From IMG/VR virus record IMGVR_UViG_2744054854_000007: a stretch of 44,225 bases of DNA; one strand, given 5' to 3'. The DNA is from a virus. Its lineage: Duplodnaviria > Heunggongvirae > Uroviricota > Caudoviricetes. Shown here in pieces: positions 29,937 through 37,482 of the stretch (position 1 is its first letter; each line of letters begins with the position of its first letter). Below the pieces are notes generated by a model. The model saw only the letters and a program-made list of their open reading frames with translations, ran no database searches and was not told the DNA's origin. The position numbers were made by a program, and so were the translations under genes.

Positions 29937-30188
29937 TTAATATTTGTAGCGGTTTTCAGGAAGAAATGCGTATTCGTAAGTGAAGTTGAACGCCTCACTT
30001 TCAGTGTTAAATCGGCGCTCGGTGATATCACTCCAGTGTCCCCTGAAATACTTCTGAGCCCCCCACTTTCCCTCGAATGGGAATACAGCATACGCACCGA
30101 CATACCGGTTATCAGCATGCGGATCTGGATATGACTCGCGTTCTGCCAGAACGTAAAACTTGATGCCGCTTACAATGAGGCAGCCCAT
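29937..30188 (-). CDS. Hypothetical protein
   Basis: ATG 30188 overlapping upstream stop (TGATG). Confidence 0.4.
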   Translation of the reverse strand: MGCLIVSGIKFYVLAERESYPDPHADNRYVGAYAVFPFEGKWGAQKYFRGHWSDITERRFNTESEAFNFTYEYAFLPENRYKY

Positions 30189-30445
30189 CACTTCTTCTCG
30201 TTCTGCGCGGCCATATCCAGGTATCGCGGGTCGGATGATTTCGGTAGAGTCAGGCTTTGCTCTCGGTAGTAACGAACTCGCTCCATGAAGTATTCACGCA
30301 GATGATCTGGCTGCTCACGAGCTACCTGCTCAGCGATAACCGGCATGTTCAGGCGCTCTTTGTACGCTACGCCACTGGCAGCCAGGTCCACGTTAGCCTT
30401 GTCCTGCTCTTCTTTCGATTTTTCTGCGATATTAAAATGTGACAT
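30188..30445 (-). CDS. Hypothetical protein
   Basis: 85 aa; translationally coupled to neighbours. Confidence 0.4.
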
Positions 30446-30627
30446 TAATCTGCTGTTCTCCCTCTTTTTTTCCTCGTTTCGTAAGGAGACCTGTAACCAT
30501 CTACAGGGGCCACATCATCAGCCTCAAAGCGCTTAGCGTTTGCTATATCGGATTGAAGCCAGTGTTTTTTATATCGCTTCCTCGCCGCTTTGTATTTTTC
30601 GGCAGGTGTCATTTCTTCGTTTGACAT
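30445..30627 (-). CDS. Hypothetical small basic protein
   Basis: Internal ATG 30627 abutting terminator hairpin; start uncertain. Confidence 0.3.
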
Positions 30628-30655
30628 AAAAAATCCCCTTGAGTTATGGAGGGGA
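30628..30655 (-). terminator. Rho-independent terminator (minus strand)
   Basis: ATCCCCT/AGGGGAT stem, 9-nt loop, then T6 on the minus strand; about 120 nt 3' of secreted-protein gene. Confidence 0.5.
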
Positions 30656-30782
30656 TTATAGGTCAGGCCGCGATTTGTTTCGACTGGCATAGTTCCGGCA
30701 GGTTAGCCCTCACCAGTGCTACAGCGAACGGGGGCACAGCCAAAAATAAAAACCGCCTAACCTGGTTGAAATTCGTTCTATT

Positions 30783-31124
30783 TTATTTGCAGGTAAATTG
30801 CACTACATCACCCTGAGACATTTGAAAGAATCGGTAATCACCATCTCCACGTCTTTGTATAATATTGCCCTCTTTAGTCGCACCAGATGGGTATGTCTTT
30901 CCTTCCGGTTTTTCTGGCCTAATCTTGCTTGTGGTGTAAGAAATGGTCCCAAAGTTAACTGTTATTGAATTTCCGATGTCAGTTATATTTGCCTTTACTT
31001 CGCCGGATTTTACTTCATTTGAGGTCATACTCCTTGCTATTCCAGAGCATACATATTCCTTTGCTTCAACGGCATGGGGCATAAGAAAGCCAATTCCTAA
31101 CAACGTGATCGCCAAATATTTCAC
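30783..31124 (-). CDS. Small secreted protein (113 aa), candidate moron
   Basis: GTG 31124 seven nt after AAGGAG; VKYLAITLLGIGFLMPHAVEA/KE signal-like N-terminus; two Cys in mature part; AT-rich by eye. Confidence 0.5.
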   Translation of the reverse strand: MKYLAITLLGIGFLMPHAVEAKEYVCSGIARSMTSNEVKSGEVKANITDIGNSITVNFGTISYTTSKIRPEKPEGKTYPSGATKEGNIIQRRGDGDYRFFQMSQGDVVQFTCK

Positions 31125-31286
31125 TTTATCTTCTCCTTGATGAGTCCCCCTCGATACTTTGGGAGGGATTATACAAAAGAAAAGTGTGGTCATGGCTATT
31201 TTTGGTAATGTTATTCGATGATAATTCACTTTATTTTTTAAATCATAATGCTATATTTCTTTCACCCCTTGCTTGCAAGGTACAAC

Positions 31287-31378
31287 GGAGGGTTGGCCGA
31301 GTGGTTGATGGCACCTCACTGATAATGAGGCGTACGGGCTATAAACCCGTACCGCGGGTTCGAACCCCGCACCCTATT
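31287..31378 (+). tRNA. tRNA-like gene, class-II architecture, Ile-type anticodon loop CUGAUAA (GAU); possibly degenerate
   Basis: Hand-folded: D-arm GCC-GAGTGGTTGAT-GGC; anticodon arm CCTCA-CTGATAA-TGAGG; 23-nt variable hairpin; T-arm GCGGG-TTCGAAC-CCCGC; acceptor has one G:A mismatch and no encoded CCA; followed by a terminator. Confidence 0.4.
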
Positions 31379-31381
31379 TAA

Positions 31382-31414
31382 GGGGTCGACAAATGTCGGC
31401 CCCTTCTTCGTTTT
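31382..31414 (+). terminator. Rho-independent terminator (plus strand) after tRNA-like gene
   Basis: 9-bp stem GGGGTCGAC/GTCGGCCCC (one G-U), loop AAAT, then TTCTTCGTTTT. Confidence 0.6.
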
Positions 31415-31600
31415 ATACATCAAATTTGGCTCTACCCGCACCGCATTCCTACCTGCTAAAACTTCATCAATCACCTGCCATTGCGTAGCCGAGATTACCG
31501 CCGTCGCTTTGTGCTGCTGCTTTTATGAGTATTTCCTGTATCTCGTGCAGACGATCGAGTGATACAGGACCGTTCACCGGGTGGTTGTTAATTGTCATGG

Positions 31601-32078
31601 TTAGTCCTTCACAAAGATAATCCAATGGGTTTTGTCGTTCTTCCCAGTACGCTGACCAATTGCAGGTTTCACGTCAGTAAGAGCTAAAATCTGGCTAACC
31701 GGGATCTGCGTTTCGTTCCATTTGAAAATAAGCACGCCGCGCGGCCACAGCACCCGAAACGCTTCTTTGAAACCGGCGCGTAAGTCAGAGCGCCACGTTT
31801 TTTTTGTTCAGTCGCCCGTATTTTTTACCCATCCAGGCAGACTGGCCCACGCGCTCGAGGTGCGGCGGGTCAAACACCACAACCGGAAAAGAAGAATCAG
31901 CGAACGGCAGTGAACGAAAGTCTGAAATCAGGTCTGGACTGATAACCAGGCGGCGACCGTCGCACAGTTCGTGCTCTTCGGCGCGAATATCAGTGAACAC
32001 GGCGCGGGTGTCCTGCTTGTTGAACCAGAACATGCGGGAGCCGCAGCACATATCAAGAATCGTCGTGTTGTCGGTCAT
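31601..32078 (-). pseudogene. Dam-like DNA methyltransferase interrupted by a frameshift at an A8 homopolymer
   Basis: N-terminal frame MTDNTTILDMCCGSRMFWFNKQ...VVVFDPPHLE stops 4 codons after the A8 run (31798-31805); the shifted frame continues ...TWRSDLRAGFKEAFRVLWPRGVLIFKWNE... to TAA at about 31601; removing one A restores a ~159-aa ORF. Confidence 0.5.
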
Positions 32079-32386
32079 ACTGATGCTCTCCCGTAAAACG
32101 CCAGTACACGCTGCATAGCCGGACTTGTGCGGCATACGGATGTGACCATGTTTTTTCTCACTTTCGATTTGAGTTGCTTGATATTCTGCTCGCCACCGGG
32201 CTGAAGCGAATAGACCGGGCGATGCGGCTCGCCAGTGCGGATTACTACCGTTTTGCGTACTAGGTGAAGCAGCAGGTTGTGTGCCTTCTTGCAGTCGCAT
32301 CCCAGCAGGCTCTGAACCTGACGAGGGGTTATGGTCTGGTTAACCCGAAGGAAATCGACGATTGCCCACAGTGATTTGCTTGCCAT
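32075..32386 (-). CDS. Hypothetical protein (103 aa)
   Basis: ATG 32386; stop overlaps methyltransferase ATG (ATGA). Confidence 0.45.
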   Translation of the reverse strand: MASKSLWAIVDFLRVNQTITPRQVQSLLGCDCKKAHNLLLHLVRKTVVIRTGEPHRPVYSLQPGGEQNIKQLKSKVRKNMVTSVCRTSPAMQRVLAFYGRASV

Positions 32387-32404
32387 AGTGATTTGCCCTC
32401 GAAG

Positions 32405-33154
32405 TTATTTAACGATCCGGAGATGGCTAACGTTCTTGCGATAGCTGCCCCAGTCAAAGTTCACCCACATTCCGCCATCCATCTGGAGACGGTCGATAAC
32501 CCGCGCACCCAACGCCACGAGAAGCTCGTCGTGGTTCAGGTTTGTCAGGATCCCCACCGGACGCATCGACGACAGGCGACGGTCGATAACCTGATTCAGA
32601 ATGACTTTCTCGCCGTTACTTCCACGCTGAATACCGACTTCATCCAGCACCAGCAGATCGACTTTGCAGAGGTCATCCAGCAATGCGGCCTCTGACTGAC
32701 CACCGTCGTAGCACTCGCGAACGCGTAGCATCAGGTCAGGGATAGTGACGACCAGCACGCTATGCCCGCCAGAAAGCAAATGATTTCCGATTGCTGCAGC
32801 GAGATGGTTTTTCCCGGTACCAGGGCCACCGCTAAACACGAAGCTCGCGAACCCAGCACCGAAATTCTGTGCGTAGCTCTTTGCCATCGTGAAGGCTTTG
32901 CGCTGCCCTTCCCCGGATACATGGTAATTCTCGAAAGTGCAGCTGCGGTGCAGGCTTTGAATTCCTGAGCGACCGAAAATTTTCTCTGTCCGGGCTTTCT
33001 GATTCAGCCTGTCCAGTTCTTCACACCGCTTCAGGCCTTCTTCCCTCTGCCATGCCAGCAGCTCTTCCGCGCTGGTGAACTTCGGCTGAACTCCTGGCGG
33101 AATGAGTTTCTTCAGGCGCTCAAGAGCGCTGCCAGAATTAACAATGTTTTTCAC
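32405..33154 (-). CDS. DnaC-like replicative helicase loader (AAA+ ATPase)
   Basis: 249 aa; Walker A GGPGTGKNHLAAA and Walker B LLVLDEVG; GTG start with AGGGGG SD two nt after the O-like stop. Confidence 0.85.
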   Translation of the reverse strand: MKNIVNSGSALERLKKLIPPGVQPKFTSAEELLAWQREEGLKRCEELDRLNQKARTEKIFGRSGIQSLHRSCTFENYHVSGEGQRKAFTMAKSYAQNFGAGFASFVFSGGPGTGKNHLAAAIGNHLLSGGHSVLVVTIPDLMLRVRECYDGGQSEAALLDDLCKVDLLVLDEVGIQRGSNGEKVILNQVIDRRLSSMRPVGILTNLNHDELLVALGARVIDRLQMDGGMWVNFDWGSYRKNVSHLRIVK

Positions 33155-35073: not shown

Positions 35074-35109
35074 AATCGCTCCTTCTATCAATTTAGGTTG
35101 ATTATGTTT

Positions 35110-35169
35110 ATCGCTTTAACGAATGTCAATCGCCTATGCGATTTTTTGCTTATTAATCGCTGTGGCGAT
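35110..35169. promoter_or_regulatory. Operator region: three ATCGC-N4/5-GCGAT-type sites between cro-like and cI-like genes
   Basis: Palindromes ATCGCctatGCGAT (about 35129-35142) and ATCGCtgtgGCGAT (about 35156-35169) plus imperfect ATCGCtttaaCGAAT (about 35110-35124). Confidence 0.6.
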
Positions 35170-36922: not shown

Positions 36923-36945
36923 ACCGGCATTATGCCGGTTTTCAT
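36921..36945 (+). terminator. Terminator-like hairpin (plus strand) after cargo gene 2
   Basis: AACCGGC-attat-GCCGGTT then TTTCATATT; U-tract imperfect. Confidence 0.45.
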
Positions 36946-37482
36946 ATTCCTTTTCTCACCATAGCAGTGACATCCCACAACACTCCTTTGTGAATCACAT
37001 TTCCAACCGCGCGACGCTTAGTCTCCAAGCTATCTACTATCGCATCTCGACTTATCACCACACCGTTGATTATCTACTCGACAACTGCACCGCCAATCTC
37101 GCCAGCCATGAAAGCAGCGCGATCTTCCAGCAGCTCATCACGTGACATATCCATTCCTAAACCCATATCAATATCCCCGCCTGGTGTTTTTTTGAGCATA
37201 TCACGCATCTCATACAAAAATAAATCACTTTATAAATCAAATAAAAATCGGCAAAATCACAATATTATCGTTTAAGCGATTGATAAAATAAATCGCCTTA
37301 GCTATCATCACCCCATCGAGAAACACTAAGCGCATCAAGTTCAAACGTTCCGCTGGCCTGGCGACAAGGGCAAAGCACAGAGTGAGCTTCGCGGTGGTGA
37401 ACTGCAGAGTTAAAACGCTCAACTGTGAAGATCAGCACCACGGCGCCACCAGCGAAGTTCACTCAGAAAACTGGAGAACATC

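What the first reader, a model, noticed from the sequence alone, without database searches (positions are those of the whole stretch)
31601..32078. Dam-like methyltransferase split by an A8 homopolymer: pseudogene, sequencing error or slippage-controlled switch
Seen in sequence: the N-terminal frame (from ATG 32078) terminates four codons after an A8 run on the coding strand (T8 at 31798-31805 on plus); the alternative frame opens two codons before the run and continues for about 67 codons with a plausible methyltransferase C-terminus. Deleting one A gives one uninterrupted ~159-codon ORF. Established: homopolymer tracts are classic slipped-strand mispairing sites and phase-variable methyltransferases are well documented. 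Inference: the gene may switch ON/OFF by tract length, which would alter methylation-dependent protection or gene regulation in lysogens.
Basis: partly seen in the sequence, partly recalled or inferred. Interest (0 to 1): 0.55.

Follow-up and report, generated by a model that had tools for sequence, protein, structure and literature searches.

The report
Frameshifted prophage methyltransferase pseudogene (A8 tract)
A small prophage methyltransferase gene in this E. coli genome is broken by one extra A in a run of seven; the break is real and stably inherited at a recurrent mutation hotspot, and there is no evidence that it works as an on/off switch.

Summary
On the minus strand an ORF from ATG 32078 stops at 31785, four codons after an A8 run (31798-31805). 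Removing one A gives a 158-aa ORF ending at 31601.

The repaired protein matches phrog_954 end to end (E 1e-84). It is identical to an intact Citrobacter protein, and close intact orthologs carry A7. So this is one gene with a +1 insertion.

It is not Dam-like. There is no Dam Pfam hit. It is a minimal class I SAM methyltransferase with an invariant DPPH motif, and its substrate is unproven.

It is not a sequencing error. The A8 allele is identical in 10 fetched E. coli loci, and its 97-aa product sits on 148 contigs. RefSeq already annotates it as "frameshifted".

A phase-variation switch is not supported. A8 is below accepted poly-A thresholds. No A7, A6, A9 or A10 version of this allele was seen in the E. 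coli loci or genomes examined. About 90% of tract-bearing orthologs are in-frame A7.

The tract is nonetheless a recurrent indel hotspot: at least 6 independent A8 or A6 alleles across Enterobacteriaceae prophages, against none where the tract is interrupted.

Verdict: an ordinary, recent pseudogene of low interest.

The parts
31601..32078 (-). Whole frameshifted methyltransferase gene. It is 478 nt, or 477 nt / 158 codons once one A is removed.
   Evidence: RefSeq/PGAP annotates exactly these coordinates as 'class I SAM-dependent methyltransferase, frameshifted' pseudogene HRR23_RS12935. The repaired protein matches phrog_954 at E 1e-84 over residues 2-157.
31785..32078 (-). N-terminal reading frame: 97 codons plus a TGA stop. 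It carries the SAM-binding motif I and the catalytic motif IV.
   Evidence: This exact 97-aa product is on 148 contigs and in 233 index blocks. It matches phrog_11564, whose hit spans only the N-terminal residues 2-94.
31798..31805 (-). A8 homopolymer on the coding strand (T8 on the plus strand), the site of the +1 insertion. The in-frame state is A7, read AAA AAA ACG = Lys-Lys-Thr.
   Evidence: Intact orthologs L004 and L005-L010 have A7. In the IMG/VR census, 63 loci are A7, 4 are A8, 2 are A6 and 1 is A7 with a deleted C.
31601..31797 (-). C-terminal part of the methyltransferase in the +1 frame (TWRSDL...WIIFVKD*). It has no further lesions.
   Evidence: The repaired protein is 100% identical to the intact Citrobacter protein WP_159137328.1. 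In the model this part forms the helix at residues 95-109 and the remaining elements (E110-121, H127-131, E140-144, E150-156).
32028..32060 (-). Motif I, the SAM-binding loop (ILDMCCGSRMF, residues 7-17).
   Evidence: D9 is invariant, and L8, C12 and G13 are nearly invariant, in 71 diverse homologs. This stretch gives weak Methyltransf_11/25 matches.
31860..31871 (-). Motif IV, DPPH (residues 70-73), the catalytic tetrapeptide typical of amino-methyltransferases.
   Evidence: D70, P71, P72 and H73 are invariant in 71 homologs of 42-62% identity.
31821..31826 (-). Second, shorter A6 run (GGT AAA AAA TAC, Gly-Lys-Lys-Tyr) 15 nt upstream of the A8 run. It is intact here but also a frameshift site in relatives.
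   Evidence: L023 has A5 here, and L109 has a 1-nt loss in its GGG AAA AAG version of this site.
32075..32386 (-). Upstream 103-aa ORF of unknown function. Its TGA stop overlaps the methyltransferase ATG (ATGA overlap), so the two are in one operon and probably translationally coupled.
   Evidence: It has no Pfam hit.

Best explanation
This is a genuine, heritable loss-of-function allele (a recent pseudogene) of a small prophage-borne orphan methyltransferase.

The ancestral gene had an A7 run encoding Lys-Lys-Thr. Replication slippage added one A, giving A8. Translation now ends four codons later, after 97 residues. That fragment lacks the C-terminal part (from the helix at residue 95 onward) of the predicted class I fold, so the enzyme is inactive (inferred).

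The A8 allele then spread, unchanged, inside a conserved module of about 3 kb shared by several mosaic Rac/lambda-like prophages of E. coli.

The A7 run is a mutational hotspot in this gene family, so the same type of lesion has arisen repeatedly. The evidence fits ordinary mutation and relaxed selection on a dispensable accessory gene. It does not fit a high-frequency reversible switch.

The intact enzyme sits in the early-right (replication/nin) operon. It would therefore be made on induction. It most plausibly methylates phage DNA, or another nucleic acid, during lytic growth; this function is inferred, not shown.
For: One gene, one lesion: the repaired ORF matches phrog_954 over its full length. 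It equals the intact Citrobacter protein WP_159137328.1 residue for residue. Intact orthologs at 92-94% DNA identity have A7.

Real and stable: the 478-nt gene including A8 is 100% identical in 10 fetched E. coli loci from Viet Nam, China, France and elsewhere. Their flanks differ by up to 2.3% in mosaic blocks, and one carries an IS3 insertion. The 97-aa product is on 148 contigs. No A6, A9 or A10 products of this allele are on record.

Hotspot: among 70 tract-bearing IMG/VR loci, 63 are A7, 4 are A8, 2 are A6 and 1 has a deletion next to the tract. In the first, unbiased scan, 0 of 77 interrupted-tract loci were frameshifted at this site, against 4 of 42 tract-bearing loci (Fisher p = 0.014). 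Sequence backgrounds differ by 40-106 substitutions, which indicates at least 6 independent tract-length events. Several of these alleles recur in 2-5 contigs.

Dispensable gene: relatives also carry nonsense and other frameshift lesions. The prophage in the window is otherwise essentially intact.

Tract too short for a switch: software for cataloguing phase-variable loci uses poly-A/T of 10 or more (PMC6321876).
Against: The downstream frame shows no decay at all, so an allele that is only temporarily OFF cannot be excluded from sequence alone.

Both +1 and -1 variants recur at the same tract across the family, which is what a weak contingency locus would also look like.

The two tract Lys codons show only 0 and 1 synonymous changes on the tree, against 1-9 for the other Lys, Glu and Gln codons. 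This is compatible with some constraint keeping the run, although two other Lys codons are equally invariant.

The exact A7 protein exists on 14 contigs. All source names listed for this protein are Citrobacter. I could not fetch their DNA to see whether they are the immediate ancestor or revertants.

No read-level data were available.
Confidence: 0.8

Rival explanations
1. Low-rate contingency locus, meaning true but slow phase variation. On this reading the A7 run is retained in this phage methyltransferase family because occasional A6/A7/A8 switching produces ON and OFF phage or lysogen subpopulations. These could be useful, for example, against methylation-dependent (type IV) restriction versus classical restriction. 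The window would simply be in the OFF phase.
For: Tract-length changes in both directions recur at this one site in at least 6 backgrounds, and never where the run is interrupted. The OFF allele has a perfectly preserved downstream frame. The KK pair in the tract is encoded AAA AAA in 63 of 64 in-frame IMG/VR loci, whereas the neighbouring KK pair contains AAG in 25 of 69 unique sequences.
Against: The tract is 7-8 nt, and accepted poly-A/T thresholds are 10 or more. E. coli is mismatch-repair proficient, which suppresses slippage at such short runs (general knowledge). The E. coli allele is monomorphic A8 in every copy fetched and on 148 contigs, with no A9, A6 or A10 products. The tree-based synonymous test is not significant, because other Lys codons are equally invariant. 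The family also accumulates nonsense and non-tract frameshift lesions, as expected for plain decay. The gene is in a repressed prophage operon, so selection in lysogens is doubtful.
Confidence: 0.12
2. Recoding. On this reading the A8 allele still yields some full-length enzyme, either because RNA polymerase slips on the A run or because the ribosome shifts +1 on AAA AAA A. The frameshift would then set a low expression level instead of killing the gene.
For: Transcriptional slippage can be productive on runs of eight A in some systems, for example apoB and Deinococcus IS elements (PMC1088944). A +1 re-pairing of tRNA-Lys from AAA to AAA would read ACG next and give exactly the wild-type Lys-Lys-Thr-Trp-Arg sequence (read from the sequence).
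Against: The frameshift is not conserved: about 90% of tract-bearing orthologs are in-frame A7. Rescue needs a 1-nt deletion or a 2-nt insertion in the RNA. In E. coli, slippage at A/T runs gives insertions, mostly of a single nucleotide, and fewer than 1% of transcription deletions start in homopolymers; that study found no pseudogene restored by transcription errors (PMC5574713). The usual slippage threshold is 9 nt. By inspection of the sequence I saw no Shine-Dalgarno-like stimulator, and the codon after the shift site is AAC, which is neither rare nor a stop. A -1 shift leads into the third, unproductive frame.
Confidence: 0.05
3. Sequencing or assembly artefact. On this reading the true tract is A7 and the extra A is a homopolymer base-calling error.
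For: Homopolymer length errors are common with 454, Ion Torrent, PacBio and Nanopore data (general knowledge). Some other frameshifted relatives are singletons, namely phage Oslo and E. coli DEC6A, each on 1 contig, and could be such errors.
Against: The same A8 appears in 4 RefSeq complete genomes from at least 3 different strains (two of the records appear to be the same strain), in several draft assemblies, and in Logan read-set assemblies. The truncated protein is on 148 contigs and in 233 index blocks.
Confidence: 0.01

Closest known systems
Frameshifted pseudogenes at short homopolymer runs in enterobacterial prophages, as flagged 'frameshifted' by NCBI PGAP
   Same: A single-base indel in an A/T run disrupts a gene whose intact orthologs are common. 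The allele is fixed and inherited. This very locus is annotated that way in RefSeq.
   Different: Nothing essential differs. The only extra is that the same run has been hit independently several times across the family.
Phase-variable DNA methyltransferases (phasevarions: Mod subunits of type III systems in Haemophilus, Neisseria, Moraxella and Helicobacter)
   Same: A methyltransferase ORF contains a simple repeat whose length sets the reading frame.
   Different: Phasevarion tracts are long tetra- or penta-nucleotide arrays or poly-G/C runs, and they vary between sibling isolates. Here the run is A7/A8, which is below the poly-A/T cut-off of 10. It is monomorphic within the allele. The host is mismatch-repair proficient, and the gene is an orphan in a repressed prophage operon, not a Mod subunit.
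Phage Dam N6-adenine methyltransferases (Pfam PF05869) found in lambdoid phages; locus L016 carries a gene that joins a Dam N-terminus to this family's C-terminal half
   Same: An orphan methyltransferase in a lambdoid prophage with an (D/N)PP(Y/F/W/H)-type motif. L016 even carries a chimera of a Dam N-terminus and this family's C-terminus.
   Different: There is no profile similarity. The motif order is I then IV with no target-recognition domain. The protein is only 158 aa.
M.EcoPA8orf6770P, the MT-A70-type methyltransferase of Stx prophages that methylates 16S rRNA together with a partner protein (PMC10810198)
   Same: A small prophage methyltransferase annotated as a DNA adenine methylase. 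It is naturally inactivated in some strains (by IS629 there) and has an adjacent upstream ORF.
   Different: It belongs to a different family (its motif is DPPW, MT-A70). No partner or RNA substrate has been shown for the present family. It is cited only as a warning that the 'DNA' label is unproven.

Membership tests
Dam-type DNA adenine methyltransferases (PF05869 phage Dam; PF02086 D12 class, E. coli/T4 Dam) | Significant match to the family profile | tested here: not met
   There is no Dam or D12 hit at E <= 1 for the repaired protein, nor at E <= 0.01 for any of 71 homologs. As a positive control, the L016 chimera hits PF05869 at E 2e-19.
Dam-type DNA adenine methyltransferases (PF05869 phage Dam; PF02086 D12 class, E. 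coli/T4 Dam) | Alpha-class architecture, with a target-recognition domain between the SAM-binding motifs and the catalytic motif IV | tested here: not met
   Motif I lies at residues 7-17 and DPPH at residues 70-73. The whole protein is a single 158-aa class I fold without an inserted domain. The nearest solved folds are generic class I methyltransferases, Trm11, M.TaqI and PrmC at TM 0.5-0.6, not Dam.
Dam-type DNA adenine methyltransferases (PF05869 phage Dam; PF02086 D12 class, E. coli/T4 Dam) | Methylation of adenine N6 in GATC | not testable with these tools
   This needs methylome or enzyme assays.
phrog_954 / 'class I SAM-dependent methyltransferase' family of enterobacterial prophages | Full-length profile match, with both halves in one family | tested here: met
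   phrog_954 matches at E 1e-84 over residues 2-157. There are 3,795 homologs at E <= 1e-10 and 2,019 representatives at 50% clustering.
phrog_954 / 'class I SAM-dependent methyltransferase' family of enterobacterial prophages | Class I (Rossmann-like) fold with a SAM-binding motif I and a conserved catalytic motif | tested here: met
   The AlphaFold model has pLDDT 95 and pTM 0.89. Foldseek gives probability 1.0 to class I methyltransferases. D9, D30 and DPPH are invariant.
phrog_954 / 'class I SAM-dependent methyltransferase' family of enterobacterial prophages | DNA as the substrate, as the PHROG name claims | not testable with these tools
   The only support is weak PF01555 (N6_N4_Mtase) similarity in 13 of 71 members. 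The structural neighbours include tRNA, rRNA and protein methyltransferases.
Simple-sequence-repeat phase-variable (contingency) gene | A repeat tract inside the ORF whose length changes the reading frame | tested here: met
   A7 is in frame, while A8 and A6 are out of frame.
Simple-sequence-repeat phase-variable (contingency) gene | A tract long enough for high-frequency slippage (poly-A/T of 10 or more in PhasomeIt) | tested here: not met
   The tract is 8 nt here and 7 nt in the ON state. The cut-off is taken from PMC6321876.
Simple-sequence-repeat phase-variable (contingency) gene | Tract-length polymorphism among closely related isolates carrying the same allele | tested here: not met
   All 10 fetched E. 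coli loci have A8. The 97-aa product is on 148 contigs, and products of A6, A9 or A10 are absent. The A7 product is on 14 contigs; the source names listed for it are all Citrobacter.
Simple-sequence-repeat phase-variable (contingency) gene | Evolutionary retention of the tract beyond what codon usage explains | tested here: inconclusive
   The tract Lys codons show 0 and 1 synonymous changes, against 1-9 at the other Lys, Glu and Gln codons, and two other Lys codons also show only 1. One AAG-interrupted variant was found among 64 in-frame loci.
Simple-sequence-repeat phase-variable (contingency) gene | Measurable reversible ON/OFF switching | not testable with these tools
   This needs read-level data or fluctuation assays.
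Programmed frameshift / transcriptional-slippage recoding site | The frameshifted arrangement is conserved among orthologs | tested here: not met
   63 of 70 tract-bearing IMG/VR loci, 14 of 15 metagenome loci and 3 of 3 GTDB Citrobacter loci are in frame.
Programmed frameshift / transcriptional-slippage recoding site | A slippery run of at least 9 A/T, or a shift site with a stimulator (Shine-Dalgarno-like element, or a hungry or stop codon in the A site) | tested here: not met
   The run is A8. The next codon is AAC, the stop lies four codons downstream, and I saw no Shine-Dalgarno-like element on inspection. The thresholds come from PMC1088944 and PMC5574713.

The most novel reading that the evidence does not exclude
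The A7 run is kept in roughly a third of this phage methyltransferase family as a weak contingency site. Slow A6/A7/A8 switching would create methylating and non-methylating phage lineages that are favoured alternately by classical and by methylation-dependent restriction in different hosts. The E. coli A8 allele would then be an OFF phase that can revert.
Probability: 0.1. Interest if true: 0.5.

Novelty: already known. Interest (0 to 1): 0.18.

Why it matters
It matters little for biology at large. For annotation, the locus should stay a frameshifted pseudogene of a class I SAM-dependent methyltransferase, should not be called Dam, and should not be listed as phase-variable.

There is one modest by-product. 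In this prophage methyltransferase family a single A7 run accounts for most independent inactivations. This is a clean natural example of how a 7-nt run biases where an accessory gene breaks. It also explains why PHROGs holds families that match only part of this protein (phrog_11564 residues 2-94; phrog_6151 residues 57-157).

If the minority reading were true (a slow reversible switch), it would extend methyltransferase phase variation to temperate phages of mismatch-repair-proficient enterobacteria. That would be of moderate interest.

Tried and rejected
- The first AlphaFold run used 53 close homologs and gave pLDDT 53. I discarded it. A second run with 71 diverse homologs gave pLDDT 95.
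- Sequence searches of the PDB gave only weak generic methyltransferase hits.
- A tree-based count of synonymous changes, meant to test whether the run is selectively retained, was inconclusive.
- The Rfam scan of 31150-32150 found nothing above threshold within the gene, only the neighbouring tRNA.
- The promoter and terminator scan found no excess of promoter-like sites, and terminator-like sites were only modestly above the shuffle mean (9 against 4.4 +/- 1.9), none of which I could tie to the gene.
- Host-specific intolerance as the cause of inactivation in E. coli was rejected, because intact homologs are common in E. coli (for example P0031 on 116 contigs, and 15 complete genomes).
- A split enzyme made of the 97-aa and 50-aa fragments was considered and rejected. 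The 50-aa ORF starts at a GTG inside the helix that precedes the strand at 110-121, I saw no clear ribosome-binding site by inspection, and neither fragment would form a complete fold.
- The literature search for a characterised member of this family found only an MT-A70 enzyme of a different family.

Full report
**1. The observation**

On the minus strand, an ATG at 32078 opens a reading frame that passes through an A8 run (T8 on the plus strand, 31798-31805). It stops at TGA 31785-31787 after 97 codons. The +1 frame is open across the run and continues to TAA at 31601-31603.

Deleting one A gives a clean 158-codon ORF; adding two gives 159 codons. This is the only homopolymer of 8 or more bases in the window.

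**2. One gene or two**

It is one gene. The repaired protein matches phrog_954 ("DNA methyltransferase") over residues 2-157 at E 1e-84. Two other PHROG families match only parts of it: phrog_11564 over residues 2-94 and phrog_6151 over residues 57-157. This suggests that split gene calls are common enough in phage records to have formed families of their own.

A search of 5.8 billion proteins found 3,795 homologs at E <= 1e-10. Most of the listed ones are 157-162 aa and are named "class I SAM-dependent methyltransferase".

Close intact orthologs (L004, L005-L010; 92-94% DNA identity) read AAC/ACC AAA AAA ACG TGG, which is A7. The window therefore carries a +1 insertion in an ancestral A7 run.

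**3. What kind of methyltransferase**

It is not Dam-like. The repaired protein gives no hit to PF05869 or PF02086, and only sub-threshold Methyltransf_11/25 hits. Among 71 diverse homologs, 60 hit Methyltransf_11, 13 weakly hit PF01555 and none hit Dam. A Dam fragment found by chance in a related locus scores E 2e-19 in the same test, so the negative result is meaningful.

The residues invariant across homologs of 42-62% identity are D9 (motif I, LDxCCG), D30, R32, P48, D70-P71-P72-H73 (motif IV, DPPH), E105, R108 and P138.

An AlphaFold model built on that alignment is confident (pLDDT 95, pTM 0.89). It shows a single compact class I fold with no target-recognition domain. Its nearest solved structures are generic class I methyltransferases, Trm11, M.TaqI, TrmM and PrmC, at TM 0.5-0.6.

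The enzyme is thus a minimal amino-methyltransferase-type protein whose substrate is not established. A prophage MT-A70 enzyme long annotated as a DNA adenine methylase turned out to methylate 16S rRNA with a partner subunit (PMC10810198). That is a different family, but it is a reason to treat the "DNA" label with caution.

**4. Real or artefact**

The A8 run is real. The window is E. coli 2018-10-1CC, NZ_AP021894.1 positions 2607707-2651931. PGAP annotates 31601-32078 as a "frameshifted" pseudogene there and in two other complete genomes from China and France.

The 478-nt gene, A8 included, is 100% identical in 10 fetched loci. Their flanks differ by up to 2.3%, concentrated in mosaic blocks. 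One prophage has an IS3 insertion 170 nt downstream, and others have deletions.

The truncated 97-aa product is on 148 contigs and in 233 index blocks, including read-set assemblies.

**5. Is it a switch?**

*Within the allele.* Every E. coli copy I fetched is A8. Products expected from A6, A9 or A10 versions of this allele are not in the 15-billion-protein collection. The source names listed for the A7 product are all Citrobacter.

*Across the family.* A complete IMG/VR scan for the tract-bearing class returned 70 loci:
- 63 are A7.
- 4 are A8 (L028, L069, L136, L155).
- 2 are A6 (phage vB_SosS_Oslo, which is L033/L002, and L157).
- 1 is A7 with the following C deleted (L081).

Metagenome contigs gave 14 A7 and 1 A8. 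Three GTDB Citrobacter genomes were all A7.

In the first, unbiased scan, 4 of 42 tract-bearing loci were frameshifted at this site, against 0 of 77 loci in which the run is interrupted (AAAGAAAC, AAAGACAC and similar). Fisher's exact test gives p = 0.014.

The frameshifted alleles sit on backgrounds 40-106 substitutions apart. The window and L028 share an identical 106-nt block around the run and may share one event. That leaves at least 6 independent tract-length changes plus one adjacent deletion. Several of these alleles recur on 2-5 contigs, so not all can be sequencing errors.

The run is therefore a genuine indel hotspot.

*Other lesions in the family.* The family also carries lesions elsewhere:
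- a frameshift in the upstream A6 run (L023, which has A5) and a 1-nt loss in the GGG AAA AAG version of that site (L109);
- another frameshift (L110);
- three nonsense mutations (L037, L041, L102).

That is the pattern of a dispensable accessory gene decaying.

*Is the run selectively retained?* The test was inconclusive. The tract Lys codons show 0 and 1 synonymous changes, against 1-9 at other two-fold codons, but two other Lys codons also show only 1.

*Tract length.* A7/A8 is short of the poly-A/T length (10 or more) used to call phase-variable loci. Even those cut-offs include tracts that may switch too slowly (PMC6321876). Phase variation also requires demonstrated reversibility and a minimal switching rate (PMC11868660). 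Neither can be shown here.

**6. Could A8 still be expressed by recoding?**

This is unlikely to matter:
- The frameshift is not conserved among orthologs.
- The usual slippage threshold is 9 A/T (PMC1088944).
- Rescue would need a 1-nt deletion or a 2-nt insertion in the RNA. E. coli RNA polymerase slippage at A/T runs gives insertions, mostly of one nucleotide, and rarely deletions. That genome-wide study found no pseudogene restored by transcription errors (PMC5574713).
- A +1 ribosomal re-pairing on AAA AAA A would give the wild-type sequence, but I saw no stimulatory element on inspecting the sequence, and the next codon is AAC.
- A -1 shift enters the unproductive third frame.

**7. Context**

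The window is an almost complete prophage of about 43 kb. It has an integrase, RecET, a LexA-like repressor, YdaS/YdaT, DnaT-like and IstB-like replication genes, a nin-like region, Q, lysis genes and contractile-tail genes. Only two internal pseudogenes are annotated.

The methyltransferase follows the replication genes in the rightward early operon. A strong promoter-like site lies at 35101-35129 on the minus strand, next to the divergent repressor gene. The gene overlaps the stop of an upstream 103-aa ORF by ATGA.

By analogy with lambdoid phages, it would be silent in the lysogen and expressed on induction. This is inference.

**8. Verdict**

The best explanation is a recent, fixed +1 frameshift pseudogene at a recurrent mutational hotspot, already flagged as frameshifted in RefSeq.

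A slow contingency-type switch cannot be excluded without read-level or experimental data. I give it about 10%.

Noticed in passing
window 31287-31378 (+), with a hairpin plus T-run at 31380-31405 (+): A 92-nt tRNA gene with anticodon GAU (Ile) but a long, class II-like variable arm of about 20 nt. It lies on the strand opposite to the early operon, just downstream of the methyltransferase, and is followed by a terminator-like hairpin. ARAGORN, Rfam (46 bits) and PGAP all call it a tRNA, and it is conserved in the related prophages L177 and L178. A long variable arm is unusual for tRNA-Ile, so its charging identity is unclear.
   Followed up: partly
L016 8977-9441 (+) (IMGVR_UViG_3300048929_000032): A chimeric ORF. 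Residues 6-67 match the N-terminus of phage Dam (PF05869, E 2e-19). They are fused in frame at ...WAG|MGKKYGRLN... to the C-terminal half of the family studied here. The DPPH tetrapeptide of this family is absent, and the Dam match covers only profile positions 1-63 of 169. This looks like recombination between two different methyltransferase genes.
   Followed up: partly
L041 and L102 (IMG/VR loci), at the codon equivalent to window 31833-31835 (Trp82): Two loci on different backgrounds (one in the A7 class, one with an interrupted tract) both carry TGG>TGA at the same Trp codon of the AWMGKKY motif.
   Followed up: no
window 31821-31826 (-); relatives L023 and L109: A second A run (A6, Gly-Lys-Lys-Tyr) lies 15 nt upstream of the A8 run and is also a frameshift site in relatives: A5 in L023, and a 1-nt loss in L109's GGG AAA AAG version of the site. 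Unlike the A7 run, this Lys-Lys pair is often encoded with AAG (25 of 69 unique tract-class sequences).
   Followed up: partly
window 36942-37148 (-): The other pseudogene annotated inside the prophage: a small hypothetical gene with an internal stop. The same lesion is annotated in the Chinese and French strains (L177, L178).
   Followed up: no
P0030, P0012 and other 248-251-aa homologs: Many family members carry an extra C-terminal domain of about 90 aa (...HHQRRLKHHINRMWLEK...) with no Pfam match. The window gene lacks it and is followed instead by an unrelated 43-aa ORF (31467-31598).
   Followed up: partly
window about 30000-33000, compared with L177-L185: A core of about 3 kb (the 3' part of the IstB-like replication gene, the 103-aa ORF, the methyltransferase pseudogene, the tRNA and the start of the nin-like region) is virtually identical in all the compared E. 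coli prophages. The blocks on either side differ by up to about 10% locally, which is a sharp mosaic boundary pattern.
   Followed up: partly
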